From: an uncultured Verrucomicrobiae bacterium
GTDB taxonomy: Bacteria; Verrucomicrobiota; Verrucomicrobiia; Opitutales; JABDGR01
Assembly: GCA_963765205.1 (NCBI GenBank)
Contig: CAVXVB010000009.1
Span: 832,001 to 896,000, forward strand
DNA: 64,000 nt
Direction of reading: 5' to 3'
The notes under the pieces were generated by a model. The model had not been told where the DNA came from and made no database searches. It saw nothing but the letters and a program-made list of their open reading frames with translations. This document shows, piece by piece, positions 46,993 through 63,974 of the stretch (the first letter of the stretch is position 1; each line of letters begins with the position of its first letter). Both the position numbers and the translations under genes were made by a program.

Positions 46993-47005
46993 ACCTTTGC
47001 CAGCC

Positions 47006-47260
47006 ATGCCTCCGCCGTATCAGGTCAGTTTCAAACCACGCGCCCTGAATGACCTTGCCGCGCTGCCTCAGGCTGGCGCGGCCCGAGTCATGGAGCGCTT
47101 GGGCCATCTCGCCCAAGGTCTGCCCGCCGACGTAAAGAAATTATCCCAGCAGGAACCCGGCTACCGCCTGCGCTCCGGTGAATGGCGCGCCTTGTTTGAT
47201 CTCGACAGCCAGCAAATCACCGTTTACCGTGTCTTGCATCGCCGCGAGGCTTACCGATGA
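47006..47260 (+). CDS. RelE/ParE family toxin
   Basis: 84 aa; DVKKL, YRLRSGEWR, VLHRREAYR. Confidence 0.88.
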   Translation: MPPPYQVSFKPRALNDLAALPQAGAARVMERLGHLAQGLPADVKKLSQQEPGYRLRSGEWRALFDLDSQQITVYRVLHRREAYR

Positions 47261-47460
47261 GCGCCCCATCCCTCCATCCCCGCTACATTGAAGAGGACGG
47301 CAAAAAAACCTTTGTGGTTCTGCCGTATGATGAGTTTGTGGGCCTGCAGGAGCACTTGGAAGATGCCGAAGATTTGCGCATTATCCGTCGCGAGCGGGAA
47401 ATTTCCCGTTCGGAACCGACGCTTTCACTGGATGAAGTCAGGCGGCGTTTGGGTCTGTAA
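47257..47460 (+). CDS. Type II antitoxin (acidic, 67 aa)
   Basis: ATGA overlap with the toxin; FVVLPYDEF..LQEHLEDAED...LSLDEVRRRLGL. Confidence 0.8.
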   Translation: MSAPSLHPRYIEEDGKKTFVVLPYDEFVGLQEHLEDAEDLRIIRREREISRSEPTLSLDEVRRRLGL

Positions 47461-47553
47461 ATTGTCGCCCATGCTCGACTGGAGCCGCTAACGCAAAAGG
47501 ACCATTTTATCATGGCGCGGGCCGGGGGTTGTGTTCATTATCCCGCTTCAAGC

Positions 47554-48056: not shown

Positions 48057-48132
48057 TGGAGCCGGCAGTCGGACTCGAACCGACGACCTACGGTTTACAA
48101 AACCGTAGCTCTACCAACTGAGCTATGCCGGC
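48057..48132 (-). tRNA. tRNA-Thr(TGT)
   Basis: 76 nt GCCGGCA...ACGGT-TTTGTAA-ACCGT...GGTTCGAGTCC...TGCCGGCTCCA with encoded CCA. Confidence 0.97.
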
Positions 48133-48187
48133 AAATTGCTTATAAGCAACGAGTTATAAAATAGATTTTTGACCCTAAAATAGTAGT

Positions 48188-48210
48188 TGTCACCCGTTCG
48201 TGTAACTCGG
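48188..48210 (+). repeat. Putative integrase arm-type sites, left end
   Basis: TGTCACCCG-TTCG-TGTAACTCG-G; 20/23 identical to 63733-63755. Confidence 0.7.
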
Positions 48211-48222
48211 TAGTATTCGGGC

Positions 48223-49303
48223 ATGAAATCCCCACAAAAAAAACCCCGCCCGCCAGGATGGGCGAACGTATTCCAAGGTAGCTGAGTGCCTGTATCGAAG
48301 TGACGCATCAGGCATATATTATGCACTGCTCAAAAAGAGCGGCAAGCAAATCCGCCGGTCCCTCAAGACCGATGATCGCAAGTTGGCGGAACGTCGCTTG
48401 GCTGAATTCCGCGAAAAGGTTGACCGGCTCGACCTCGGCGAAGGCAAGACCCGCCTGACCTTTGACGAAGTGGCGGCGCGGTGGCTGGATTCCCTGCGGT
48501 CGCATCTCAAGCCATCCTCGGCGCTGCGCCGGGAAACCAGCCTCAAGCAACTGCGCCCCACCTTCGGAGCCGTCCCAGTGCGCAGCATTATCCGCCTGCA
48601 ATGCGAAGAGTGGGCCAAGCATCGTAGCCCGCAGATCGCGGCCTCCACCTTCAACAATGAGCGGGAAACCATGCTCTCGGTGCTGGAATACGCGCAGCGG
48701 GAAGGGTTGATCATGGACAATCCGGCCAAGGTCATCGGTCGCCGCAAGCTTGGCAAGACAACCGTGCTCATTCCCAGCCGGGAGCAATTCGAAAAGCTGG
48801 TTGCCACCCTGCGCGGTCTCGACATCCGCTACCAGGACGCCGCCGATTTTATCGAACTCCTAGCATACTCCGGGATGCGTAAGGCAGAAGCCAACGCCTT
48901 CGGCCTGGCTGACGTGGATTTTGAGCGCGGGAGCTTCAACGTTACTGGCGGCGAGCTCGGCACCAAAAACCACGAAATGCGTGTGGTCCCGCTCTTTCCC
49001 GTCTTCCGCGCGTTCGTTCAACGCCTCCAAACACAAAGCCCGCGTCCGGCAGATAAACCGCTGGTGCCGATCCTCGACGGCAAGAACGCTTTGGACACCG
49101 CTTGCAAGCTCAACGGTTACCCGCACTTTACGAATCATTGCATGAGACACTTTTTTGTCAGTAATGCGCTTGAAAAGGGCGTTGAATTCAAGACCATAGC
49201 TGCTTGGGTCGGCCACAAGGACGGCGGCTTGCTCGTCGCCAAAACCTACGGCCACCTCCGCGATACCCACTCTTTCGAAATGGCCAAAAGAATTACTTTA
49301 TGA
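48223..49303 (+). CDS. Tyrosine recombinase/integrase (apparent frameshift in the A8 run at 48236-48243)
   Basis: YSGMR, TKN, HCMRH, VGH, KTY catalytic set; the open frame extends upstream of TTG 48383 (KVAECLYR...GIYYA...RSLKT) and joins ATG 48223 if one A is removed. Confidence 0.9.
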
Positions 49304-49412
49304 ATGCAGAAGCAGAAGCCCAGAAAAATCGGCACCTCCGAGAGTTTTTGGAGACCAAAGCTGCAAGTGCCGTTTCTGGAGCTTCGCGAGATCGCGTAGA
49401 TGGCTCGGAGGC

Positions 49413-49467
49413 CCCGCCAACAAAAGCCCCCCGGCCCTTACGGGCGGGGGGGGCTTTTGTTGGCGGG
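49413..49467. terminator. Long GC-rich hairpin downstream of the integrase
   Basis: 20-bp perfect stem CCCGCCAACAAAAGCCCCCC / GGGGGGCTTTTGTTGGCGGG with inner GCCC-TTAC-GGGC. Confidence 0.6.
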
Positions 49468-49963
49468 CCTGAGCTTGTTAGAATTCTCAATAAGTCCCAA
49501 ATGCAAGTCGCTTTCGCTGCCAGAAGCCAGCAACCTTGAACTTGACGGCCAAAAGGAAGAGGCCAAAACTATGTTTTGACATAGCTTGAGCGGTCGCATC
49601 TCGACCGATTTCAACCGGACCATGGCAGATGAAAGAGGCCGTCGGGTATGCGGGTGATTCACCGGGGCAAGTCCCGCCGCAGCGGGATTGGGGTGTTTAG
49701 TCGAACGTAGGCGAGGTTCGCTCTAGAAAAAAGAACGGGTTAGTAGCCGAGAAGGTGCTCAGTGACGCTTTAAAATGGCCCAAAGTGCATGTTGGCATGG
49801 TGGCACTTCCCAGGCTATGGTTGGCGCGTGGGCTCATTTGCGGCGGTGACTTTTGCCTTGATGCGGCGAACGTTTTTGTTTAGTGAATCGTGGTGTTATG
49901 GTTGTTCCATGGCATAGCGTTCCGTTAAATGATGAAGAGGATTCACCATTTAACCGTGTGAAC

Positions 49964-50779
49964 ATGGCGAAAACCACCGCGCGCCTCGAAGTTAACGTAG
50001 TCGCCGGACGCAGCGCAGCCACCACGGTTTGTTCCTCGAATCCGCTGAAGCTCCTGGTTCCGCGCCCGCGCGGGGAAAGCATCTGGGCCTACCTGGGCAG
50101 TTTCGGGGGCGGGTTCGTGGCGGGGGATGAGACCAGCATGGCCATTCGTCTGGGAGCCGACGCCCGCTGTTTTCTATCCACGCAGGCTTCCACCAAAATC
50201 TACCGCAATCCTCGCGAGCTACCCTGCGGCCAATCGCTCCGGGCCGAGCTCGCAGCCGGTTCGCTGCTCGTCTTCGCGCCCGACCCCATCCAGTCCTTTG
50301 CCGGCTCGGCCTATGCCCAGCGCCAGGAATTTCATCTGCAAGCGGGCGCCAGTCTAGTGCTGGTCGATTGGTTTTGCTCCGGTCGCACAGCGCGCAACGA
50401 ACGCTGGATTTTCACGCGTTTGCAAAGCCGGAACGAAATTTTTGTCGGCGGAGAAAGATTGCTGGTGGATTCCCTGCTGCTGGATCAGGCCGATGGCCCG
50501 CTCGAAGGGACCCATCGCATGGGCCGCTTTAATTGCGTCGCCGTCATTGTCGTCATGGGAGCCTCCGTGGCCGAGGCCGCGGCGAACTGGCTCGCGGAAG
50601 TGGCCAGCCGTCCGGTGGCGCGGCGCGCCAGCCTCATCGTCACCGCCAGCCCCCTGCGGGAAGGCGTCATCGTGCGCGTGGCCGGCGAAAGTAGCGAGGA
50701 AGTCGCCCGCGAAATTCATCGCGGACTCGCCTTTGTGCCCAAATTGCTGGGTGACGACCCGTGGTCTAGAAAGTGGTAA
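49964..50779 (+). CDS. ureD: Urease accessory protein UreD/UreH; start uncertain
   Basis: [32 protein letters not shown]. Confidence 0.88.
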
Positions 50780-50786
50780 AACTATT

Positions 50787-51545
50787 ATGCACCTGAACCC
50801 TCGAGAACTGGACAAGTTAATCCTGCACCAAGCCGGTGTCCTGGCGCAAAAACGGCTGGCGCGCGGCTTGCGCCTCAATCATCCCGAGGCCGTCGCGCTG
50901 ATCGCTACGCAGTTGCTCGAATTCGTTCGCGACAGCAAAAGCGTTTCCGAATTGATGGACCTCGGCCGCCAGTTGCTCGGCCGCAACCAGGTGATGGAGG
51001 GCGTGCCTTCCATGATTACAGAAGTGCAGGTTGAGGGAACTTTTCCCGACGGCACCAAATTGATCACCGTGCACCATCCCATCGCCGCCGCCGAGGGCAA
51101 CCTCGTCCTGGCGTTGCAGGGAAGTTTTTTGCCCGTGCCGGACGCCGCCTTGTTCAAGCCGGAGGTCGCAGATATTGAGCCGGGTGAATGTCTCGCGTCG
51201 GAGGGAGTCGTGGAACTCAACGCAGGCCGCAACAGCATCAAGCTCCCGGTCACCAATCTGGGCGACCGCCCCGTCCAGGTGGGCAGCCACTACCATTTCA
51301 TCGAGACCAACGCCTCGCTCGAATTTGACCGGCTCGCGGCCTACGGCAAACGCCTGGACATTCCCGCCGGGACGGCCGTGCGGTTCGAGCCGGGCGAAAC
51401 CAAAACCGTGCAGCTCGTCGACATCGCCGGCCGGCGTGTTATCCACGGCGGCAATAATCTGGCCAGTGGCCCGGTTTCCGACGCCGGCAGGGCGGCGGCG
51501 GCCACCCGCATCGCGCAACAAGGTTTTTCCCACAAATCATCCTGA
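50787..51545 (+). CDS. ureAB: Fused urease gamma/beta subunit
   Basis: [11 protein letters not shown]...[16 protein letters not shown] (gamma) continues in frame into [15 protein letters not shown]...[15 protein letters not shown] (beta). Confidence 0.95.
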
Positions 51546-51551
51546 CCCACC

Positions 51552-53267
51552 ATGTCGCACCTCATGAAACGCCAGCATTACGCCGAGATGTTCGGCCCGA
51601 CCACGGGCGATCGCGTCCGGCTCGGCGACACTTCTCTCCTCCTGCAAGTCGAGCGCGACCACACGGTCTACGGCGACGAGTGCAAATTTGGCGGCGGCAA
51701 GCCCATTCGCGAAGGCCAGGGCCAGGCCGCCGGCGTGGGACAGGAGGATTGCCTGGATTGTGTCATTACCAACGCCCTCGTCGTGGACTACACGGGCATT
51801 TACAAAGCCGACGTGGGCATCAAGAACGGCCTGATTGCCGGGATCGGCAAGGCGGGCAATCCCGATGTCATGGCCGGAGTCTCCCAAAACATGATCGTCG
51901 GGGTGACCACAGAAGTGATCGCCGGCGAGGGGCTGATCCTTACCGCCGGCGGGATCGACTCGCACATTCATTTCATCTGCCCGCAACAGGCTCATGAGGC
52001 CATCGCTGCCGGACTGACCACCATGGTGGGCGGCGGCACCGGCCCGGCCACCGGGACTTGCGCCACCACCTGCACGCCGAGCGCGTTTTATCTCGAACGG
52101 ATGCTGCAGTCGACCGATGCCCTGCCGCTGAATTTTGGCTTCACCGGCAAAGGCAACACCGCCCTGCCGCAAGGATTGCAGGAACAGATTCTCGGCGGCG
52201 CCATCGGCCTGAAGCTCCATGAGGACTGGGGCACCACGCCCGCCGCCATTGATTGCTGCCTGCGCGTCGCCGATGACCACGACGTGGCGGTGACCATCCA
52301 TACCGACACCTTGAACGAATCGGGCTTTGTCGAAGCGACCATCGCCGCGATCAAAGGCCGCACCATCCATACTTACCACTCCGAAGGCGCCGGTGGCGGC
52401 CACGCGCCGGACATCATTCGCATCTGTGGTGAGGCGCACGTGCTGCCCAGTTCCACCAATCCGACGCGCCCCTATACCGTCAACACGATCGACGAGCATC
52501 TCGACATGGTGATGTTCTGCCACCACCTCGACCGCAAACTGCCGGAGGACGTCGCCTTCGCCGAGAGCCGCATTCGCGGCGAGACCATCGCCGCCGAGGA
52601 TATCCTGCACGACCTCGGTGCCATCAGCATGATGAGTTCCGATTCGCAGGCCATGGGCCGCATCGGCGAAGTCATCACCCGCTCGTGGCAAACGGCGGAC
52701 AAGATGAAGCAACAACGCGGGTCGCTGCCGGGCGAAGCCGCGGGCAACGACAATCTGCGGATCAAACGCTACATTTCCAAATACACCATCAACCCCGCGA
52801 TTGCCCACGGCATGGCGCATGCCATCGGCTCTGTGGAGGTCGGCAAGCTGGCCGACTTGGTTCTCTGGCGGCCCGCCTTTTTTGGGGCCAAGCCCGAAAT
52901 GGTGCTCAAGGGCGGCTTCATCGCCTGGTCGCAGATGGGCGACCCCAACGCCTCCTTGCCCACGCCGCAACCCGTTTTCATGCGCCCGATGTTTGGCGCC
53001 TTTGGCTCGGGCCCGGGCTCGTCGTGCATCGCCTTTGTCAGCCGGCGTTGCCGGGACCAAGGCGTCGCCGCCGGCTACGGGCTGCGCAAACGCATTGACG
53101 CCGTGCAAGCCTGCCGCAAACTCGGCAAGAAGGACATGAAATGGAACGATGCCACCCCGCGGATCACGGTCGATCCGGAAACTTACGCCGTCACGGCCGA
53201 TGGCGTGCCGTTGGTGTGCCAACCGGTCCGCGTGCTCCCGCTGGCCCAACGCTATTCCCTGTTTTGA
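51552..53267 (+). CDS. ureC: Urease alpha subunit
   Basis: [42 protein letters not shown]. Confidence 0.98.
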
Positions 53268-53911
53268 AAACGCCGGACCAGGATTGGCTGTTGTGGCAAC
53301 TCGCGGATTCCGCCTTTCCGACCGGAGGCTTTGCGCACAGCGTGGGATTGGAAGCCGCCTGGCAACATGGCGAGATTCGCAACCCCGCCGAGTTAACGTC
53401 TTTTCTCGAAGCCAGCCTGCGGCAATTGGCTCACTCGGCGTTGCCGTTCGCCGCCGCCGCGCATGACGCGCCGGAACAGGGAGCGGAACTGGACCGCTTG
53501 TCCGACGCCTTTCTCACTAATCATGTGGCCAACCGCGCCAGCCGCGCACAGGGCCGCTCTTTCCTGATGGTGGTGGAAAAAACTTTCGGTTTGGCACACC
53601 ACTCGCTGCCCTTCGGGCATTTCGCGCCGGTATTTGGCGGCACTGCCCGCCGGCTCGGCCTGCCGCGGATGAATACGACCCACCTTTTCTTTTTCCAGCA
53701 TTTGCGCGCGTTGGTTGCCGCCGCCATCCGGCTGGGCATCGTTGGCCCCATGGAGGCGCAGGCCCTCCAGCACCGCTTGGCGCCCCATGCGCGGGAGATA
53801 CTTTCCCGCGGCGGGCATTGGCCCGTTTCCGCCATGGCCCAAACGGCGCCGTTGCTGGAATTATGGCAGGGAACCCAAGACCGCCTCTACTCCCGCTTGT
53901 TTCAAAGCTGA
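53264..53911 (+). CDS. ureF: Urease accessory protein UreF
   Basis: [16 protein letters not shown]-terminal SRLFQS; TTG start overlaps the ureC TGA. Confidence 0.92.
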
Positions 53912-53913
53912 CC

Positions 53914-54690
53914 ATGAAAACCCATACGCATCACGACCACGACCATGGCCACGAAGATACCCATGCTCACGGCCATGGCCACACGCACGAACATCTCGAC
54001 CACCCCGGCCATTTCCACGAACGCGACCAACCGCTGCACCGCGATTTCCACCAGCGTGCGTTCACGGTCGGCGTGGGCGGGCCGGTGGGCAGCGGCAAGA
54101 CGGCGTTGATGCTCGCGCTGTGCCGGCAATTGCGCCGGCAAATGAACATCGCTGCCGTCACCAATGACATTTTCACCCGGGAAGACGGCGAATTCCTCAT
54201 CCGCAACCAGGCGCTGGAAGCCGAGCGCATCCGGGCCGTGGAAACCGGCGGCTGTCCGCACGCGGCTATCCGCGAAGACATTTCCGCCAACCTGCTGGCG
54301 CTGGAGGAACTCCATCAGCAATTTCACCCCGACCTGATGCTGCTGGAATCCGGCGGCGACAACCTGGCCGCCCACTTCAGCCGCGAGCTGGCCGATTACA
54401 CCATCTACGTTATTGACGTGGCCGGGGGTGACAAAATCCCGCGCAAAGGCGGCCCGGGCATCACGCAGTCCGACCTTCTGGTCATCAACAAAACGGATCT
54501 GGCCGCCGCCATCGGCGCGGATTTGGGCGTGATGGAGCGCGACGCGCGGCTCATGCGCGGCCACGGCCCGTTCGTGTTCGCGCAAGTCAAGCACGGTCTC
54601 GGGGTTGATGAAATCATGAACCACGTTATCCATCACTGGCAGCATGCCGCGGGCATCGCCCATCGTCATTCCGCCGCTGGAGAAAAATGA
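53914..54690 (+). CDS. ureG: Urease accessory GTPase UreG with His-rich N-terminus
   Basis: [25 protein letters not shown]; poly-His leader. Confidence 0.96.
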
Positions 54691-54778
54691 GCAGGCGTAA
54701 CCCAATGAAATCATTAAGACGCGAACCGGTGTAAACGATTATGCCTGCGGCCATGGAATCCTCCAACCTCGTTAAAAA

Positions 54779-55837
54779 ATGATCGCACATCTCTTGCCGC
54801 TGCCGAAAAACCTCAAGGGAAATGTTTTGGGCATCTATGGACTGCTGATCGGGGCAAACCTGGCGGTGTGGATTTGGGCGGTGATCTCCTTCCATGCTTA
54901 TCCGTTGCTGCTGGGCACCTCGCTGTTGGCCTATACGTTTGGCCTGCGCCATGCGGTGGACGCCGATCATATTGCCGCCATCGACAATGTCACGCGCAAG
55001 CTGATGCAGCAGGGAAAAAGACCGTTGGCCGTTGGCCTTTTCTTCTCCTTGGGCCACTCCACGGTCGTGTTTGGCCTGTCCCTCGTCATAGCTGTGACTT
55101 CCGCCGCGATCAAGGACCGCATGGAACCCGTTCATGTCATCGGCAGCATGGTGGGCACCTCCGTATCCGCCTTTTTTCTTCTGGCGATAGCGGCGGCCAA
55201 TATGATCGTCCTGGTTTCGGTCTACCGGATGTTCCGGGTCGTCAAGGCGGGGGGCGGCTATGTCGAGGAGGATTTGGAACTGATTCTTGCCCAGTGCGGC
55301 TTTTTGGGGCGGATTTTCCGCCGGGTATTTCGCCTCATCGAAAAAAGCTGGCACATGTATCCGCTCGGTTTTCTCTTTGGCCTGGGCTTCGACACGGCGA
55401 CGGAAATCGGCCTGCTGGGCATCTCCGCCACCCAGGCGTCCAACGGGCTGCCCGTCTGGTCTATTCTGGTCTTTCCGGCGCTTTTCACCACCGGCATGGC
55501 GTTGGTGGACACCACCGACAGCATTTTGATGCTGAGCGTGTACGGCTGGGCGTTCGTGAAGCCGATCCGAAAACTCTATTACAACCTGACCATCACGTTT
55601 GTCTCGGTGGCCGTGGCGTTGGTGGTTGGCGGCATTGAGGCGCTGGGCTTGGCGGTCGACCACTTTGAGTTGCATGGGGCCGTCTGGAATTCGGTTCGTG
55701 GGCTCAACGATAACTTGGGCGCGTTGGGCTTCATCATTATCGGCATCTTTGTCGCCAGTTGGGTGGTTTCGATTACGGTCTACCGGCTCAAACGGTACGA
55801 CGAAATAAAACCCGGCCTGCTGTCAGTTAAAAATTAA
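54779..55837 (+). CDS. High-affinity nickel permease (HoxN/NixA, NiCoT family)
   Basis: RHAVDADHI signature, GHS, LGFDTATE. Confidence 0.95.
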   Translation: MIAHLLPLPKNLKGNVLGIYGLLIGANLAVWIWAVISFHAYPLLLGTSLLAYTFGLRHAVDADHIAAIDNVTRKLMQQGKRPLAVGLFFSLGHSTVVFGLSLVIAVTSAAIKDRMEPVHVIGSMVGTSVSAFFLLAIAAANMIVLVSVYRMFRVVKAGGGYVEEDLELILAQCGFLGRIFRRVFRLIEKSWHMYPLGFLFGLGFDTATEIGLLGISATQASNGLPVWSILVFPALFTTGMALVDTTDSILMLSVYGWAFVKPIRKLYYNLTITFVSVAVALVVGGIEALGLAVDHFELHGAVWNSVRGLNDNLGALGFIIIGIFVASWVVSITVYRLKRYDEIKPGLLSVKN

Positions 55838-55918
55838 GCGGTCTGAGCAAAAACGCGCACGAAACTTGGCAAACACGGCCTTGATGGCGCGAATTCGCGA
55901 GGACTTGGAAAAGCGGCT

Positions 55919-55954
55919 GTCGCAATTCCGTTTGTTTTCGTCGCAATTCCGTTT
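55919..55954. repeat. 15-bp direct repeat with 21-bp period
   Basis: GTCGCAATTCCGTTT at 55919-55933 and 55940-55954. Confidence 0.75.
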
Positions 55955-56226
55955 AATTTTTGTTGTGAGCGGCCCTCCCGCATGACAAAAACTCGGGCCG
56001 GCAGGCGGGAGGTTAACCGGTCGGAAAATGGCGTATTTCCGAGGTGAATTTGCTCAGCCGTGCAATATTTTTCGCGGATGATTCGGCGTGATTCCAGCGT
56101 CCGCACCAGTTAATTCCAATTTCATATTGCATATAAATAAGGCCAGTCGTGATAACGCTGCGATATATAGGCAAAATAAAATTCCGATCGGTTCTTGGCC
56201 GATCGCTTAACGCAAACGTCACATTT

Positions 56227-56242
56227 TGGCATCGTTTATGCT
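56227..56242 (+). promoter_or_regulatory. Sigma54 (-24/-12) promoter for porin-urtABCDE
   Basis: TGGCATCGTTTATGCT: GG-N10-GC, about 100 bp upstream of ATG 56341. Confidence 0.7.
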
Positions 56243-56340
56243 CACTCGTTTTTTCACTGCAAAAGCCGGCTGAATGCTCACTTCAGCATGTCATCTTCCA
56301 ACCACAGCAGGCGCGAATTGCAGCGGAGAAATACGTCGCT

Positions 56341-57612
56341 ATGAATAATCCATCTGCGCTCAAACTGATCCACCGGTGCTTGTTAACCGGGGGTGTTTTG
56401 CTCGGCAGTGCCGCTGTCGCACTGGCCCAAGACACCGCCCCCACCTTGTCCAGCTTGGAACAAGAAAATCAAGCCTTGACCAGTCGCCTCAATGCGCTTG
56501 AGGCCATGGTGCAAAAACAGGGCTTGGCACCCAGTGCCATGCCGATGCCCAGCCCCGTGTCGTCCCTCGATAAAATCACGATCAGCGGCTTTGTTCAGAC
56601 CTCTTATTTCAGCAATCTTGAAAATGAAACTGCCCAGCGCATACCCAGCTATTTGTGGGACAACAAGAACAACAACTTCTCGATCAACAAGGTCAAGTTG
56701 ACTTTTGCCAGCACGCCGGCCGTGCGCAGTGACACGGATTGGAGTGCGGCTTTCCGTGTGTCGTTGATGGCGGGCGAGGACTCCTCGGTTTTGAATTCCG
56801 GCAGCACCGGCCCAATATCGGGTTTCCAATACCTGCGTGAGGCCTACGTGGAAACGAACGTACCCGTCGGAAATGGCTTGATTATCAAGGCGGGCGAATT
56901 GATCTCGCTGCTGAATTGGGAATCCGGCGACGGCGGCGCGGCCAACCCGAATTTTTCCCAAGGTTATCAATGGTATTACACCGGCAATGGCCCGTCCGGC
57001 GGCGTGCAGGCTGATTATGCTTTCACGGATTGGCTGGATGTGACCGCGCGTGTGGACAACGGCCTGTATGCCGGCCCCGTTGGCAACGCGAACAAGAAGG
57101 AAGCGATGGGTTCAATCAACCTCAAACCCACCAAGGATTTCTGGATGAATTTAATCGGCTTTGGCGGCTTGGGTGCCGACGGCTTGGATGCGAACGGCGG
57201 GTCGGTCATCGGCGGATATCAGATCACTCCCGAGCTGGGCACCGGGTTTGAGGGCGACTACTTTAGTTTTCACAATCAGGGCAACCCCTCGGGCGATTTA
57301 GAGTCGATTGGCGGCTGGATCTGGTATGACTTCACGCCCCAATACGGCATTGCTTTCCGGGCTGAATATCTGGATGACCCGGAAGGGGTTGGACTGAACG
57401 GCGGTCCGAACCCGTTTGGCCCCGGCTCCGGAATTTTGTCGCCATCCCCGAACGGAAATTTGGAAAGCTTCACGGTTACGTTCAACTGGCGTCCCGTCTC
57501 CTACTTGAAAATCCAACCTGAATTTCGGGTGAACCACACCTCGTATACGGGTGGCTTTGCCGGCAAACAAAACGAATACATTGTCGGGCTCGGCGCGACT
57601 TATTCGTTCTAA
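56341..57612 (+). CDS. Outer-membrane beta-barrel porin (BBP2/OmpL-like)
   Basis: Signal peptide, short coiled coil, alternating aromatic strands, C-terminal YSF. Confidence 0.8.
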   Translation: MNNPSALKLIHRCLLTGGVLLGSAAVALAQDTAPTLSSLEQENQALTSRLNALEAMVQKQGLAPSAMPMPSPVSSLDKITISGFVQTSYFSNLENETAQRIPSYLWDNKNNNFSINKVKLTFASTPAVRSDTDWSAAFRVSLMAGEDSSVLNSGSTGPISGFQYLREAYVETNVPVGNGLIIKAGELISLLNWESGDGGAANPNFSQGYQWYYTGNGPSGGVQADYAFTDWLDVTARVDNGLYAGPVGNANKKEAMGSINLKPTKDFWMNLIGFGGLGADGLDANGGSVIGGYQITPELGTGFEGDYFSFHNQGNPSGDLESIGGWIWYDFTPQYGIAFRAEYLDDPEGVGLNGGPNPFGPGSGILSPSPNGNLESFTVTFNWRPVSYLKIQPEFRVNHTSYTGGFAGKQNEYIVGLGATYSF

Positions 57613-57675
57613 GCCGCATTTTTTTGACCAGTCAGCTTCAACCTATTAAAAACCAACTCTCTAAAACTCAAAATC

Positions 57676-58998
57676 ATGAAAAGTTACCTGCTACCAATTG
57701 TGGCCCTGGCGGCCACGCTGAATCTCGTATCTCCCGCCGCAGCGGCCGACGCCGCCCCGCCGCCTGACACCGTCAAGGTGGGCGTGCTCCACTCCCTGAG
57801 TGGCACCATGGCCATCAGCGAAACTTCCCTGCGCGATGTGCTGCTTTTTGCCTTCGACCAAATTAACGCTGCTGGCGGTGTTAAAGTCGGCGGTAAATCA
57901 TACATGATTGATCCCGTGGTGGTGGACGGCGCTTCCAACTGGCCCTTGTTTGCCGAGAAGGCCAAGCAACTGCTGGAGGAGGACAAAGTGGCCGTCACGT
58001 TCGGCTGCTGGACCTCGGTGAGCCGCAAGTCCGTGCTGCCGGTGTTCGAGAAGGATAATGGCATGCTGTTCTATCCCGTGCAATACGAGGGGGAGGAGCT
58101 TTCCAAGAACATCTTCTATACCGCCGAAGCGGTGGGACAGCAGGCCACCCCGGCGGTGGATTACCTGCTCGCCCAGGGCAAAAAGAAGTTCTACCTCATC
58201 GGCACCGACTATGTTTACCCGCAAACCACCAACCTGATTCTTTACAAATACCTGCTGCTGCATGGTGTTCCCGTGGAGAATATTGGCGGTGGCTTGCGCA
58301 AAGACGCGGATGGCAAGGTTATTTCCGCCGGCCAATATGTGCCCTTTGGCCATACCGACTTTCAGCAGATTGTGGCGGACATCAAGCAGTTTGCCTCCAG
58401 CGGTGACGCCTGCGTGATCAACACCATCAATGGCGACTCCAACGTGCCCTTCTTCAAGGAAATTGTCGCCGCGGGATTGACCCCGTCCGACTGCCCGGTG
58501 GTCTCCTTCAGTTTGGCTGAAGACGAACTGCGCAGCATGCCGACCAAGGACATGGTGGGTGAACTCGGCTGCTGGACTTATTTCATGTCGCTGGACACCC
58601 CTGAAAACACGGCCTTCCTCAAAAGCTGGAATGACTGGCTGGCGACCGAAGACCACCCCGGGGTAATCAAGGAAAAGCGCGCGATGGATAGTCCTATGGT
58701 CTTGTCCTATGACGGCGTTTATTTGTGGAAACAGGCCGTGGAGAAAGCGGACTCCTTTGATGTGGACAAGGTGCGCGCGGTGCTGGAATCCGGTGACGAC
58801 AGCTTCGCCGGACCGGGTGGCAAAATCACCATGCAGGCGAATCACCACGCCACGAAGAACGTTTACATCGGTGAAACCAAAGCCAACGGCCAGTTCAAGA
58901 TTTTGCAGACTTTTGACCAAGTATATGGTGAGCCGTTCCTACTGAAGGGCTTGGACGACAAGTTGGCCGCGGCCGCGCCGCCCGCCACCACCAAGTGA
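57676..58998 (+). CDS. urtA: Urea ABC transporter substrate-binding protein
   Basis: [33 protein letters not shown]. Confidence 0.92.
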
Positions 58999-59038
58999 AG
59001 AATCGTTCACGGTCAATTCACATGATCTCCAATTCAAG

Positions 59039-59067
59039 GGGGCGGAGCACCAGCTCCGCCCCTTTTT
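59039..59067 (+). terminator. Intrinsic terminator-like hairpin between urtA and urtB
   Basis: GGGGCGGAGC-ACCA-GCTCCGCCCC followed by TTTTT. Confidence 0.8.
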
Positions 59068-59074
59068 ACATTAA

Positions 59075-60831
59075 ATGAAGAAACTATTGAAATGTATTGC
59101 TGCATTGGGTTTGCTGTTGCTGCTGCCGTGCCTCAAGGCGGTGGGAGCCGATTCTCCTGTACCTGACGATGCCGCAGTCCGCCAGCTTCTCGTTCAAGTA
59201 ATCACGAGCAAGGGAGCCGCGCAGCAAAAACTGCTTGGCGACATTGGGGAGACCGGTTCCAAAATTGCGGGAGACGTATTGACGGCCTGGACGCGAGACG
59301 AGGTTTACCTGTATCCCGCGCCCGATGGCACCAAGGTGCCCGTGTTGCTGGAAGACGCGCAGGATGCAAGCGGCAAAGCCCGTGCCCTGCGTATCATTGA
59401 TGGGCAGGTGGTCAAGGACGCCAGCGGCAAGGATTTGCGTTTTGGCGACAGTGAATTGGACACCGCGGATACGGACATGAGTTTGCGCACCACTATCAGC
59501 CGAACGATTGACACCCTGTCCCTCTCCAGCCCCGATGTTGACAGCCGCTGGTCGGCGGTGAACAAATTGGGCAATTCACAAAAACCCATCTATATTCCCA
59601 TTCTTCAGGCCAGGCTGGCCAAAGAGACGGATGCCACCGTGAAACGAGCAATTATGGAAGGCATCGCCACTTTGCAACTCAACGACCCCGAACCGGCCGT
59701 GCAAATTGCGGCGGTCAAGCAATTACAGGCCTTAAATTCGATCGGTAATCTTGACAACCTGCAGCGGCTCGCCGCCGACCCCAAAACCGGCCGCGATGTC
59801 GTGCAAGCCGCCAATCTGGCTCTTGGTTCCATTCAAAGGCACGTTTGGTTTGTGAATTTCTATGGCACGATTTTTCACGGCCTGAGTCTTGGTCCATTCT
59901 CCTGGTGGTCGCACTCGGCCTGGCCATCACCTTTGGCCTGATGGGGGTCATCAACATGGCGCATGGCGAAATGATCGCCATTGGAGCCTACACCAGCTAT
60001 GTCGTGCAAAACCTGTTCGGCACTGGCTTTTCCTTTGCTGTTACCTTGCCTTTTAGCGTTATGGGCAAACCACTCGGTTTTGGCCTGAGTCTGCCGGGAT
60101 TGAACGCCACGGGCTGGTTTTATCAAAGTTATTTTTTGTTCGCGATTCCACTCAGTTTTCTGACTGCCGCGCTGGCGGGGCTCGTGCTGGAACGCACCGT
60201 CATTCAATACCTTTACCGCCGTCCGCTCGAGTCGCTCTTAGCCACCTGGGGCGTGTCCCTCGTCATGCAGCAGCTCTTCCGGATGATTTTTGGGGCGAAC
60301 AACGTCCAAGTCAACTCGCCCTCCTGGCTGCTGGGCCACTTCGATGTGAATGACGTTTCATTTGGCTATAATCGCGTATTCGTCATCGCCTTTGCCTTTT
60401 TAATTGTGTTGGGCACCTGGCTGTTGCTCACCAAAACGCCCCTGGGTCTGCTCATTCGCGCCGTGATGCAAAACCGTTCTATGGCTTCTTGCATGGGCGT
60501 GCGCACCAGCCGCGTGAACATGATGACTTTTGCCTTTGGGTCCGGGCTGGCTGGCTTGGCCGGGGCCTTTCTTTCGCAAATTGGCAATGTGGGGCCGAGT
60601 TTGGGCCAAAGTTACATTGTGGACAGTTTTATGACGGTGGTGGTGGGCGGGGTCGGCAGCATCATTGGCACGGTTTATGCAGCGTTAGGCATCGGCACGG
60701 CGGACCAGGTTTTGCAGCAATTGTTCGGATCGCCAGTAATGGGCAAAATCATCGTCCTCGTCTGCATCATTTTATTCCTGCAATGGAAGCCAGGCGGACT
60801 GTTTTCCATTCGTGGCCGAAATCTGGATTGA
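59075..60831 (+). CDS. urtB: Urea ABC transporter permease with large N-terminal periplasmic domain (apparent frameshift at ~59893)
   Basis: ORF 59075.. ends FHGLSLG; the next frame continues SILLVVALGLAITFGLMGVINMAHGE. Confidence 0.88.
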
Positions 60832-60835
60832 CACC

Positions 60836-62019
60836 ATGCGGGCCAAGACGACCAATTTCGAGCTGTGGTTTGTGGCGGCGGCGGCCGTGGTGCTGCTGGT
60901 AATCATGCCGGGGTTAAATGCGCTCACCGCGCCGGGCAGCCCGCTGCACGTCAGTGACTTCACCATCAATCTTTACGGCAAGTATCTCTGCTATGGCATT
61001 GTGGCGATCAGCGTGGATTTGTTGTGGGGCTACACCGGCTTGCTTAGTCTCGGCCAATGTCTGTTTTTCGCCTTGGGTGGATATATGATGGGCATGTATC
61101 TCATGCGGGAGATTGGCGACCTGGGCCAATACCACATGCCCATTCCCGATTTTCTCGTGTTTTTGGGGTGGAGCAAACTGCCCGGCTTTTGGAAACCGTT
61201 CTCCAGTTTCCCGTTTGCCTTGATGATGGTCATACTGCTCCCAGCGGTCCTGTCCATCGTGTTTGGCTACATGGCCTTTCGCGCCCGCATTCGCGGGGTC
61301 TATTTTTCCATCCTGACCCAGGCGCTCACCTACGCCGCCTGTTTGCTGTTTTTTCGCAATAGCATGCTCATGGGGGGAACAACGGATTCACGGATTTCAA
61401 GTTTCTGGCCGGTTACGACCTGCGTACCCCCGCCACCCAGCGCGGGCTTTATATTTGCAGTGTGCTGTTGCTGCTGGGAACTTACTTCCTTTGCAAATGG
61501 CTGACGGGGACCAAATTTGGCAAGGTTCAGCGTGCCATTCGCGACAGCGAAAATCGCGTGCTTTTCTCGGGTTATGCCACCGCGCACTTCAAGCTGTTCG
61601 TGTTTGTCCTGGCCGCCATCATCGCAGGGCTGGCCGGCGCCCTCTATGTGCCGCAGGTGGGGATTATTAATCCGAGTGAAATGGCCACGGATAAGTCATT
61701 GGAGGCCGTGGTTTGGGTCTCGGTGGGCGGACGGGGCACCCTGATTGGCCCCGTGATTGGCGCGGTCATCATCAACGCCCTAAAAAGCTGGGCCACGCGC
61801 GCTTATCCCGACCTCTGGCTGTTGTTTCTCGGGATGACTTTTATCTTGGTGACCCTGTTCATGCCCAAGGGCATTGTCGGACTGCCCGCGCAATTGCGCG
61901 GGTTGAAACGGCGTTATCTGGCCGTCAAACCTGCTGAAACCAAAGCCGTCCCGGTCCCGTCGGACCCGCTCCCAGCCTCAGCTCCAGGCGAAATTTTGGC
62001 GAAATCGAACGACAAATGA
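60836..62019 (+). CDS. urtC: Urea ABC transporter permease (apparent frameshift in the G6 run at 61372-61377)
   Basis: [23 protein letters not shown]; one extra G restores [10 protein letters not shown] and joins [16 protein letters not shown]. Confidence 0.88.
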
Positions 62020-62783
62020 TCATGTCCGAACCCAAACCATTTATCCTCGCCCTGCAAGAGGTGAACAAGTCCTTTGAAGGCTTCAAAGCGATTTCCGATC
62101 TCACCTTTTATATGGACGACGGGGAATTGCGGGTCATCATCGGTCCCAACGGTGCTGGCAAGAGCAGCATGTTGGATTTGATCACCGGCCGCACCAAACC
62201 GGACAGCGGAAAAATTGAATTTGCGCCTAATACGGACCTGACCAAACTGAATGAGGCCGAAATCACCCGCCTTGGCATCGGGCGAAAATTTCAAACCCCG
62301 TCGGTTTACATTGATCACACGGTCTTTGAAAATATCTGGCTCTCGCTGGAAGGCAGCCGCAGCGTGTGGAACACGCTGTTCTCCCGGATCACCTCGGAAC
62401 GCCGGGACCGGATTTTTGAAGTGCTCAAGACTGTCGCGCTGGATGGCAAGGCTGATTGGAAGGCGGGCGCGCTTAGCCATGGGCAAAAACAATGGCTGGA
62501 AATTGGCATGTTGCTCGCGCTCAATCCGAAGCTCTTGCTGGTGGATGAACCCGCCGCCGGCATGACCGACGAGGAAACCTACAAGACCGGCGAACTGCTG
62601 CTCAGCCTGGAAGGCAAACACAGTATCGTGGTCATTGAACACGATATGACCTTTGTCCGGCAAATCGCCCGCAAAGTCACCGTGCTGCATCGTGGCACGG
62701 TGTTGTGCGAAGGCACGGTGGATGAAGTGCAAAACAGCGAACAAGTCATGGAAATCTATCTTGGACGCAAAAAGAAAAACTGA
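62016..62783 (+). CDS. urtD: Urea ABC transporter ATP-binding protein
   Basis: [27 protein letters not shown]. Confidence 0.93.
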
Positions 62784-62785
62784 CG

Positions 62786-63481
62786 ATGCTGCAACTTTCC
62801 AACATCACCGCCTCCCTCCAAGGTTCGCGCATTTTGCGCGGCGTAAACCTCACCGTGCCTGAACGCAGTCTGGTGTGCCTCATGGGGCGCAATGGCGTGG
62901 GCAAAACCACCACCCTTAAATCCATTGTCGGACTCGTGAAGCCGGACACCGGCACGGTGAAACTGGACGGCAAAGACTTGATGGGCCTCACGCCCAACGT
63001 CCGTGCCCGGCAGGGGATTGGCTATGTGCCACAGGGGCGCGATATTTTTCCGCATCTCACCGTCTGGGAGAATTTAAAGGTCAGCCTCGTGGTCCACAAG
63101 GTCAAAAGCACCGCCCCGGTGGACCGGGTGCTGGAACTCTTTCCCATTCTCAAGGAATTTCTCCAGCGCAAAGGAGGGGTGCTGAGCGGCGGCCAACAGC
63201 AGCAACTGGCCATTGCGCGGGCCTTGCTCACGGAACCTAAAATTTTGATTCTGGACGAGCCGACCGAGGGTATTCAGCCCAACATCATTGACCTCATCGG
63301 CGAAACCCTCTTGAAAATTAAAAAAGAAGGAAAACTAAGCATCCTTCTCGTGGAACAATATCTCGATTTTTGTTTGAGCGTAGGCGACAGTTTTTACATC
63401 ATGGATCGTGGCACGATTGTGGCCGAAGGTTTGATTGCGCACCTGACTGATGAAGTTGTAAGGAAGCACCTTACCGTTTAA
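62786..63481 (+). CDS. urtE: Urea ABC transporter ATP-binding protein
   Basis: GRNGVGKT, YVPQGR, LSGGQQQQ, DEPTEGIQP. Confidence 0.93.
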   Translation: MLQLSNITASLQGSRILRGVNLTVPERSLVCLMGRNGVGKTTTLKSIVGLVKPDTGTVKLDGKDLMGLTPNVRARQGIGYVPQGRDIFPHLTVWENLKVSLVVHKVKSTAPVDRVLELFPILKEFLQRKGGVLSGGQQQQLAIARALLTEPKILILDEPTEGIQPNIIDLIGETLLKIKKEGKLSILLVEQYLDFCLSVGDSFYIMDRGTIVAEGLIAHLTDEVVRKHLTV

Positions 63482-63732
63482 TCCGTGGTTGCGCTAATAC
63501 CGGAGAAATCCATTACGGCTAGAAACGCTGGCGGTGTTGGCTGCGGCATTGCGGGCCTTAAAGCAGTCCCCGGACAAGCATATGCCGGGGGAGCTTGCGC
63601 CGGGGTCTACGACCGCTCGCCATTCAGGAATCCGCAAGTCCGGGAGGTGTAGCGCATGCGGAACGCACGCCCGGTAGTCTCCACGGTCTGCGGGTTGATT
63701 GGCAAATAGCCAAGATGTAGCCTTCCAAAATG

Positions 63733-63755
63733 TGTAACCCGTTTGTGTAACCCGG
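63733..63755 (+). repeat. Putative integrase arm-type sites, right end
   Basis: TGTAACCCG-TTTG-TGTAACCCG-G, 13-bp period as at the left end. Confidence 0.72.
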
Positions 63756-63881
63756 CGGTCGAAAATAAAATGCTTTTGGAGCTTTCAGGACAAGGGCACG
63801 ATTCCCGCTAGCATCTGCCTGGCATGGACTTGATCACTCAAGAGCATAAGAGACGACTATAGTAAATTGTAACATTTAAAA

Positions 63882-63919
63882 TTACAAAACCTTAGCTCTA
63901 CCAACTGAGCTATGCCGGC
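63882..63919 (-). repeat. Distal att site: displaced 5' half of tRNA-Thr (positions 1-38)
   Basis: GCCGGCATAGCTCAGTTGGTAGAGCTAAGGTTTTGTAA, 37/38 identical to the tRNA. Confidence 0.93.
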
Positions 63920-63944
63920 GCTAAACTTTTTCGATCAATGGCGG

Positions 63945-63974
63945 ACTCTATCGCGATGGAAGCCATGGGGGCAA
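63945..63974 (-). promoter_or_regulatory. Candidate original sigma70 promoter of tRNA-Thr
   Basis: TTGCCC-N18-TAGAGT on the minus strand, about 25 bp upstream of the displaced tRNA half. Confidence 0.45.

What the first reader, a model, noticed from the sequence alone, without database searches (positions are those of the whole stretch)
48057..63974. Island that replaces the 5' half of tRNA-Thr and separates the tRNA from its original promoter
Seen: the direct repeat covers tRNA positions 1-38 and ends exactly at the 3' edge of the 7-nt anticodon loop. The island lies upstream of the intact minus-strand tRNA. Established: tRNA-targeting tyrosine integrases usually duplicate the 3' part of the gene and sit downstream of it, and the anticodon loop is a known crossover site. 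Inference: here attP supplied the 5' half, so the intact tRNA must now be transcribed from island DNA. The AT-rich 48133-48187 stretch has a minus-strand TATAAC -10-like hexamer and a perfect TTGCTTATAAGCAA palindrome at 48136-48149. The likely native promoter (63945-63974) now points into a half-tRNA and on into the island, antisense to urtE.
Basis: partly seen in the sequence, partly recalled or inferred. Interest (0 to 1): 0.85.

Follow-up and report, generated by a model that had tools for sequence, protein, structure and literature searches.

The report
Reverse-facing urease island in tRNA-Thr
A 15.8-kb mobile DNA island carrying urea-uptake and urease genes has inserted into a threonine tRNA gene backwards, supplying the gene's front half and cutting it off from its own promoter; this layout is rare but known, and it is the rule for a whole family of such elements in Verrucomicrobiota.

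Summary
Confirmed. A 38-nt repeat (37/38) covers tRNA-Thr(UGU) nt 1-38, ends at the anticodon loop's 3' edge and brackets a 15.8-kb integrase-urease-urea-ABC island upstream of the genome's only Thr(UGU) gene. In island-free relative G002 the gene beyond 63920 sits directly upstream of this tRNA, and the stranded host promoter (TTGCCC-18-TAGAGT) is strong. The polarity is heritable: 92 of 105 related integrases (>=40% identity) lie divergently upstream of a tRNA; 33 show a 5' fragment, none a 3' one; 72 of 83 targets read ANN codons. Intact relatives carry int, an Xis-like HTH and a rolling-circle Rep, often with defence genes. This copy looks immobilised: frameshifted int, no HTH or Rep, a mutated fragment. 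No strong island promoter faces the tRNA (4 of 83); a weak candidate uses the Int arm repeats as -35. 5'-fragment islands are published (159 of 3919 in Islander). This scan reported the Verrucomicrobiota clade before on other DNA (e1-7725393); I found no paper on it.

The parts
48057..48132 (-). Intact tRNA-Thr(UGU); nt 1-31 inferred to be element-derived, nt 39-76 host-derived, crossover in or at loop 32-38
48095..48132 (-). Repeat copy 1 (tRNA nt 1-38), the integrase-proximal att site
48132..48156 (.).
   Evidence: IHF consensus recalled; only one HU/IHF-family gene found in the genome
48177..48205 (-). Weak candidate outward promoter for the tRNA: TTACAC (in the distal arm repeat) -17 nt- TATTTT; alternative GTGACA-17-AAAAAT at 48193-48165
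   Evidence: inference, low score
48188..48208 (.). Pair of arm-type repeats (GGGTKACA-like, 13 nt apart) next to the integrase
   Evidence: Int binding inferred
48187..48216 (+). Integrase promoter TTGTCA-18-TAGTAT overlapping the arm repeats, 6 nt before the ATG (leaderless mRNA inferred)
48223..49303 (+). Tyrosine integrase with catalytic R-K-H-R-H-Y residues present; the ATG at 48223 is out of frame with the coding body, the shift lying around the A8 run at 48236-48243
49413..49467 (.). Perfect 20-bp inverted repeat, terminator-like, after int
49540..49880 (+). Non-coding repeat that lies about 400-460 nt downstream of Rep in two intact family members; probable remnant of the lost Rep module
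49883..55837 (+). Urease block: ureD, fused ureA/B, ureC, ureF, ureG, NiCoT nickel transporter; 95-97% identical in DNA to a non-island copy in G003
56149..63481 (+). Porin (BBP2) and urea ABC transporter urtABCDE; the breaks in urtB (~59890) and urtC (~61371) are assembly errors
63525..63715 (.). Second non-coding repeat shared with other islands of this genome
63733..63753 (.). Distal pair of arm-type repeats, 128 nt from the anticodon-loop edge
63882..63919 (-). Displaced host 5' half of tRNA-Thr (nt 1-38), with C28 changed to A
63945..63974 (-). Stranded host tRNA promoter TTGCCC-18-TAGAGT, now reading into the half-tRNA and the island, antisense to urtE
   Evidence: native flank shown

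Best explanation
This is an immobilised member of a Verrucomicrobiota family of integrative elements whose tyrosine integrase recombines at the anticodon loop with reversed polarity. The circular form carried, in order: integrase, two arm repeats, an IHF-like site, the 5' half of the tRNA, the loop, and a second arm. Crossover in or at the loop left the element's 5' half joined to the host's 3' half (the intact gene), and pushed the host promoter and host 5' half to the far end (shown by sequence and by an empty site in a relative; the reaction itself is inferred). The cell's only ACA-reading tRNA gene therefore has to be transcribed from island DNA (follows from geometry). The most likely promoter is a weak one whose -35 is an Int arm repeat, overlapping the divergent int promoter (inferred, about 40%). 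Intact relatives carry int, an Xis-like HTH gene and a rolling-circle HUH Rep; this copy lost those, took up urease and urea-uptake genes, and acquired an int frameshift and a fragment mutation, so it is now probably fixed cargo for nitrogen scavenging.
For: Repeat ends at the loop edge in 18 of 28 fragments and 1-3 nt further in 9. G002 has the best hit of the 64137+ gene (48% identity, E 5e-52) directly upstream of its tRNA-Thr. 92 of 105 near-full-length integrases at >=40% identity are divergent-upstream of a tRNA; 31 of these 92 show a fragment on the island side, all 5', none 3', plus 2 more in longer stretches. The distal arm pair lies 126-129 nt from the loop in 21 of 28. The group is one side of a 100/100 branch (35 of 95 members sampled). 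Two loci show a bare 5' half beside int, an attP-like junction (L222, L229). PF23343 Rep in 12 of 18 delimited islands and HTH_17 in 10 of 18; the element with the 91%-identical integrase at the same tRNA has both, the window island neither. The window int is the only 1 of 83 without an in-frame start, and a contig of run X1 spans the A8 run without a gap while correcting two other single-base errors.
Against: Only 1 of 3 empty same-genus sites checked (G002, G003, G004) keeps the same upstream gene. No attB or attP junction was seen in four runs, at about 5x depth in the best. No strong promoter faces the tRNA in element DNA: 4 of 83 beat the 95th percentile of shuffles against 12 of 28 host flanks; the arm-based candidate occurs in 19 of 51 against about 6 expected. 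10 divergent loci with 9 kb or more of room show no fragment. One basal member (L256, 40%) has conventional 3' polarity. Run X1 may be the sample the genome came from, so the frameshift check is not independent.
Confidence: 0.85

Rival explanations
1. Same island, but the tRNA is driven by the AT-rich TATAAC/palindrome stretch.
For: TATAAC and the perfect palindrome are present 1-25 nt upstream of the tRNA; AT-rich DNA can serve as a promoter without a good -35 (general knowledge).
Against: Closest relative has TGTAAC and no perfect palindrome; the hexamer at this position varies across 83 elements; not among the top 8 promoter-model hits; the motif fits an IHF-type consensus in 30 of 83 against 3.8 shuffled and recurs in 3'-type relatives.
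Confidence: 0.15
2. The element is still mobile: the A8 run is a slippage switch that gives some full-length integrase, or one of the genome's sister integrases and Rep proteins acts in trans on the intact arms.
For: Catalytic residues and both arm pairs are intact. The genome holds three other full-length clade integrases (62-76% identical) with near-identical arm repeats, PF23343 Rep genes and two TrwC relaxases. The urease block was exchanged recently with G003.
Against: No other of 83 members lacks an in-frame start; HTH and Rep are gone; the far fragment has a stem mutation; the G003 copy lies outside any island of this type; no junction contigs.
Confidence: 0.2
3. Crossover lies near the 5' end or D-loop of the tRNA, so the intact gene is almost wholly host-derived and the far fragment is partly element-derived.
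For: The D-arm is also a palindrome; the far copy differs from the host consensus at position 28; three other pairs differ at position 16.
Against: Identity ends at the loop edge across many different tRNAs; the distal arm is spaced to the loop at 126-129 nt; attP-like junctions end at the loop.
Confidence: 0.05
4. The repeat is a chance or assembly duplication and there is no island.
For: The assembly has single-base errors in this region.
Against: E 9e-12 repeat, integrase, arm pairs at both ends, an empty site in G002 and dozens of elements with the same anatomy.
Confidence: 0.01

Closest known systems
tDNA islands with a displaced 5' fragment (Islander, PMC4383910; reverse-orientation element of Zhao and Williams 2002, J Bacteriol 184:859, not readable here, seen only as cited in PMC6563490 and PMC1635311)
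   Same: Tyrosine integrase, intact tRNA plus co-oriented 5' fragment upstream, anticodon-centred site; 159 of 3919 Islander islands have a 5' fragment.
   Different: The passages I could read give counts and single cases, not a clade in which the polarity is fixed across at least 17 tRNA types, nor the att anatomy, the ANN preference or the promoter question.
OD (opposite, divergent) integrase-tRNA shape and autoregulated integrases such as KplE1 IntS (Panis et al. 2010, PMC2951348)
   Same: Integrase promoter overlaps arm-type sites; OD shape is rare (SIT and OD together under 8% of 1273) and was predicted and, for one case, shown to be autoregulated.
   Different: The sections read treat integrase regulation, not the source of the tRNA's transcription; IntS itself is a co-oriented 3'-type system.
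ICEKp1 at tRNA-Asn (PMC13023037, abstract)
   Same: Integration rewires promoters between a tRNA gene and the element.
   Different: Mirror image: there the host tRNA promoter drives int; here the tRNA loses its promoter and int keeps its own in both states.
Integrative elements with a rolling-circle HUH Rep (PF23343) and an Xis-like HTH gene, carrying defence cargo
   Same: Intact relatives have int, HTH_17 and a Rep with HUH and YxxKY motifs, with RM, SIR2, OLD, SLATT or toxin-antitoxin cargo.
   Different: The window copy has none of this core and carries metabolic cargo; no named family was matched.

Membership tests
Islander tDNA island, 5'-fragment class | Intact tDNA and an end fragment of it in the same orientation, 5' fragment upstream | tested here: met
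Islander tDNA island, 5'-fragment class | Tyrosine integrase (PF00589) inside the interval, not Xer or integron | tested here: met
   PF00589 45.5 bits over cut-off 27.1; far below all Xer and integron cut-offs; but frameshifted at its start
Islander tDNA island, 5'-fragment class | Length 2-200 kb, fragment outside a coding domain | tested here: met
   15.8 kb; fragment in the intergenic stretch after urtE
Islander tDNA island, 5'-fragment class | Empty site in a relative joins the far flank to the tRNA | tested here: met
   G002; not seen in G003 or G004, which have other neighbours
Anticodon-loop (site A) integration | Strand exchange within the 7-nt loop | tested here: inconclusive
   Identity boundary fits; exchange point needs a recombination assay
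Active integrative element | Excision circles or empty attB | tested here: inconclusive
   None in four runs of contigs at low depth
Rep/Xis-bearing core of this clade | HTH_17 and PF23343 Rep after int | tested here: not met
   Absent from the island; present in the sister element at the same tRNA
ICE, IME or prophage | Relaxase, T4SS or virion genes on the element | tested here: not met
   All island ORFs scanned are integrase, urease or transport genes; relaxases lie elsewhere in the genome
Autoregulated OD-shape integrases (Panis 2010) | Int represses a promoter overlapping its arm sites | not testable with these tools
   Overlap seen in 54 of 61 loci with the arm-derived -35; repression untested

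The most novel reading that the evidence does not exclude
A phylum-wide family of rolling-circle integrative elements routinely takes over transcription of host ANN-decoding tRNAs by using its own Int arm sites as the -35 of overlapping divergent promoters. Int occupancy would then set the level of an essential tRNA (and of AGA/AGG/ACA-rich, often foreign, gene translation), the element end could not be lost except by precise excision, and silencing int, as in this copy, would both lock in the cargo and free the tRNA from repression. Six tRNA genes of this one genome sit behind such DNA.
Probability: 0.15. Interest if true: 0.75.

Novelty: new variant of a known kind. Interest (0 to 1): 0.42.

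Why it matters
About 96% of catalogued tRNA islands leave the host promoter in charge of the tRNA. Here a whole integrase clade does the opposite at many tRNAs, including single-copy ones, yet carries no obvious strong replacement promoter, which poses a direct test: what transcribes these tRNAs, and does Int control it? Among deeper relatives the same att module is found in both polarities, giving a natural series for how target orientation flips. The elements are also ready-made, precisely mapped integration modules for a phylum with few genetic tools. For this genome, the island fixes a urea-scavenging pathway whose urease block has moved recently between species.

Tried and rejected
TATAAC/palindrome as the tRNA promoter: not conserved, low score. 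Proximal arm as -35: 5 of 51, no better than background. Viral contigs as carriers of attP: of 80 loci returned none was a near-full-length member above 32% identity, so no phage of this clade was found in that scan (159 hits, 80 kept). Excised circles: no terminal repeat of 20-199 nt in the 80 metagenome loci; no attB/attP joint in runs X1, X2, X3, X19 (low depth, contigs only, not evidence of absence; the one long joint in X3 has a 34-nt side and lands at another place). RNA runs held only 0.06 of the words and cannot show start sites. Frameshifts in urtB and urtC as decay: rejected, X1 contigs and G003 have the missing base. L229 as a polarity flip inside the clade: rejected, a bare 5' half lies beside its int. 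Terminator after the stranded promoter: only the D-arm hairpin was found; the 301-nt transcript folds no better than shuffles (z -0.25). Rfam: nothing but the tRNA and the 5' ureB sRNA model above cut-off. The two non-coding repeats fold weakly (z -0.4 to -2.3): no function assigned. A symmetric core-type site in attP could not be defined by eye. A 5' fragment for the tRNA-Asn integrase of this genome was not found within 214 kb. Literature searches for a Verrucomicrobiota or Opitutales clade: searches gave nothing relevant; three key papers (Zhao and Williams 2002, Williams 2002, the 2020 TIGER paper) could not be read, and supplements and the TIGER/Islander database were not seen.
Full report
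Observation. ARAGORN finds tRNA-Thr(TGT) at 48057-48132 on the minus strand. It is the only Thr(TGT) gene among the 55 tRNAs of the genome G000 (92% complete). A 38-nt direct repeat joins 48095-48132 and 63882-63919 with one mismatch. It covers tRNA nt 1-38, stops at the 3' edge of the loop TTTGTAA and does not extend upstream of nt 1. The mismatch is C28 to A in the far copy; the island-free relatives G002 and G003 have C28, so the far copy has drifted. No 3' fragment of this tRNA exists in the genome.

Content. Between the repeats lie a tyrosine integrase divergent from the tRNA, then ureD, a fused ureA/B, ureC, ureF, ureG, a NiCoT nickel transporter, a porin and urtABCDE, all on the plus strand. 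The apparent breaks in urtB and urtC are assembly errors: contigs of run X1 put one G back at each place and G003 has the extra base too. A locus titled as an uncultured Opitutales record holds a 91%-identical integrase at the same tRNA, and same-genus genomes share the left flank, so the host is an Opitutales bacterium (Verrucomicrobiota).

Native flank. In G002 (same genus, no integrase at this site) the best hit of the gene that starts at window-equivalent 64137 lies directly upstream of tRNA-Thr(TGT) (41% identity, E 1e-46; 48%, E 5e-52). Two other empty sites, G003 and G004, have different upstream neighbours, so the support is 1 of 3. A promoter model trained on 42 other tRNA flanks of G000 scores the stranded flank TTGCCC-18-TAGAGT (63974-63945) at 13.4, among the best native scores.

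The polarity belongs to a clade. All 5 genome-collection homologues lie divergently upstream of a tRNA. A search of 401 genomes of the order found matches at E <= 1e-40 in 32, and a metagenome scan returned the best 80 of 588 hits. Pooling these, 105 near-full-length integrases at 40% identity or more (not dereplicated; the window and three other G000 elements included) fall as 92 divergent-upstream, 8 without room, 4 without a tRNA and 1 co-oriented. On inspection, the co-oriented case (L229) and one no-tRNA case (L222) have a bare 5' half beside the integrase, an attP-like junction; L256 (40%) has conventional 3' polarity and is a real exception; L240 and L253 show no tRNA. Of the 92, 31 show a fragment on the island side in the DNA held, all 5' and none 3'; longer stretches add two, at 21 and 30 kb; 10 with 9 kb or more of room show none. 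In 28 fragments identity ends at the loop edge in 18, 1-3 nt later in 9, and one is decayed. An IQ-TREE tree of 56 proteins (35 of the 95 dereplicated members at 40% or more, all 21 below) puts the group on a 100/100 branch; the group was defined by identity to the query, which favours that result. Among the outer relatives the two polarities alternate, for example sisters L093 and L094, and L062 within a divergent group. G000 alone has 5' fragments at Thr(TGT), Thr(CGT), Arg(TCT), Lys(TTT) and Arg(CCT), and a clade integrase at Asn(GTT). Of 83 dereplicated divergent loci, 72 target tRNAs with U36, which read ANN codons, against 15 of 55 tRNAs in G000 (my count); kin are not independent.

att anatomy. 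Reading from int: two direct GGGTKACA repeats 13 nt apart, about 62 nt from tRNA nt 1; an AT-rich stretch; the 5' half; the loop; and at the far end a second repeat pair 126-129 nt from the loop in 21 of 28. In the window these are 48188-48208 and 63733-63753. I read them as Int arm sites by analogy with lambda-type integrases (inference). The AT-rich stretch matches the IHF consensus (recalled, WATCAANNNNTTR) in reverse with at most one mismatch in 30 of 83 loci against a shuffled mean of 3.8. The same motif lies beside the tRNA end in the co-oriented relatives L062, L093 and L096, so the module is the same and only the tRNA half is flipped. The genome has one HU/IHF-family gene, so the binding protein is uncertain.

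Promoters. The int promoter is clear: an arm-derived TTG(T/C)(C/A)A with a -10-like hexamer 16-18 nt later in 54 of 61 loci, and an ATG 5-10 nt after it in 47 of 54; in the window TTGTCA-18-TAGTAT-6-ATG. This matches the overlap that gives autoregulation in KplE1 IntS and an OD-shape integrase (PMC2951348, passages and sections 10-11). The tRNA-facing side is weak. Only 4 of 83 element flanks beat the 95th percentile of shuffles, against 12 of 28 host flanks. A -10-like hexamer peaks at -51/-50 in 23 of 83, and fits the distal arm as -35 in 19 of 51 against about 6 expected; in the window this is TTACAC-17-TATTTT (48205-48177), score 3.9, with GTGACA-17-AAAAAT at 6.4 as alternative. That the tRNA must be transcribed from island DNA follows from geometry; which promoter does it is open.

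State of this copy. In 18 delimited relatives PF23343 Rep occurs in 12 and HTH_17 in 10, with restriction-modification, SIR2, OLD, SLATT, Mrr and toxin-antitoxin cargo. The Rep proteins have HUH and YxxKY motifs, and the sister elements at Thr(TGT) in G006 and G007 keep HTH and Rep, while the window island has neither. A non-coding repeat at 49540-49880 lies about 400-460 nt downstream of Rep in L064 and L031, which suggests that the genes between int and this repeat were deleted (inference). The window integrase keeps its catalytic residues but is the only 1 of 83 with no in-frame start: its ATG at 48223 is out of frame with the body around an A8 run. An X1 contig crosses the run with no gap; X1 may be the source sample. 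UreC is found in 2 of 10 family genomes. The G003 copy is at a site with no clade integrase or arm pair; its urease block is 95-97% identical in DNA, the transporter block about 80%, and core genes 77-80%, so the urease block moved recently by some route other than this island's integrase, or before its capture.

Comparison with what is known. Islander lists 159 islands with a 5' fragment among 3919 (PMC4383910, parts 1-2 of 3 read). A survey of thaumarchaeal elements'-distal recombination considerably less frequent and cites Zhao and Williams 2002 and four archaeal papers (PMC6563490, passages). I could not read Zhao and Williams, Williams 2002 or the 2020 TIGER paper. ICEKp1 shows the mirror-image promoter capture in a 3'-type element (PMC13023037, abstract). 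Passages of PMC12884075, PMC13626063, PMC9897764 and PMC1635311 added nothing on 5' polarity. Five searches for a Verrucomicrobiota or Opitutales clade or for the promoter question found no paper; supplements and the TIGER/Islander database, which may list these islands, were not seen. Earlier notes of this scan report the same polarity in other genomes, one of them for a Verrucomicrobiota integrase group; I saw them after my own clade analysis, and they gave the Zhao and Williams lead.

Verdict. The island and its reversed polarity are real (about 0.95). The class is published and rare; what is added is a large clade with fixed polarity, a defined att module, a preference for ANN-reading tRNAs, a Rep/Xis core, and the finding that no strong replacement promoter is visible. 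New variant of a known kind, interest 0.42.

Noticed in passing
G000:C9:912116-913345, C9:228137-232173, C8:97495-100780, C5:319167-327866, C12:35810-45810: Five more tRNA genes of this genome (Asn-GTT, Arg-TCT, Thr-CGT, Lys-TTT, Arg-CCT) sit behind elements or remnants of the same 5'-type family; the Asn element faces the Thr island 17 kb away and has no detectable fragment.
   Followed up: partly
window 49840-55837: Urease block 95-97% identical in DNA to G003, against 77-80% for core genes and about 80% for the adjoining transporter block: recent transfer and a mosaic cargo. G003 has a 41-nt tandem duplication at the end of ureD.
   Followed up: partly
   Followed up: no
window 63525-63715; G000 C8:392973-394413, C5:93191, C7:239449, C9:1462629-1465306: A 190-240 nt non-coding repeat shared with other islands of the genome, two of them with a PF23343 Rep nearby; candidate cis-acting replication or transfer signal.
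   Followed up: partly
window 49540-49880; G000 C5:49079, C11:189223, L064, L031, L272: A second dispersed non-coding repeat ending in a conserved ATGGTTGGCGCGTGGGTTCATTT-like motif, found in several islands; no Rfam match.
   Followed up: partly
window 59890 and 61371: Single-base assembly errors split urtB and urtC.
   Followed up: yes
L022:9799-9874 and L043: Element-preceded tRNAs with a G-U pair in the acceptor stem where relatives have Watson-Crick pairs, as expected for chimeric genes; three intact/fragment pairs differ at D-loop position 16.
   Followed up: no
L082 (G122), L023, L025, L026: Tandem 5' fragments at one tRNA (L082), and tRNAs hit from both sides, with a 5'-type element upstream and 3'-type fragments downstream.
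   Followed up: no
L093/L094, L062/L255/L257: Closely related integrases (about 30-38% identical to the query) with opposite tRNA orientation and the same spacer anatomy: candidate recent polarity flips.
   Followed up: partly
G000:C9:1287772-1288740: Cluster of seven tRNA genes duplicating isoacceptors found elsewhere, typical of a mobile element.
   Followed up: no
L229:9516-13540 and L231: Elements carrying a tRNA called Ile(TAT) and, in L229, an extra divergent tRNA-Arg(CCT) next to an attP-like junction.
   Followed up: no
window 46997-47500: ParE-family toxin gene and a small partner ORF between nadA and the PEGA gene, absent at this place in G006 and G002.
   Followed up: no
window 51702-51998 (-): Rfam 5' ureB sRNA model (RF02514) matches antisense to ureC at 105 bits; may only reflect coding conservation.
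   Followed up: no
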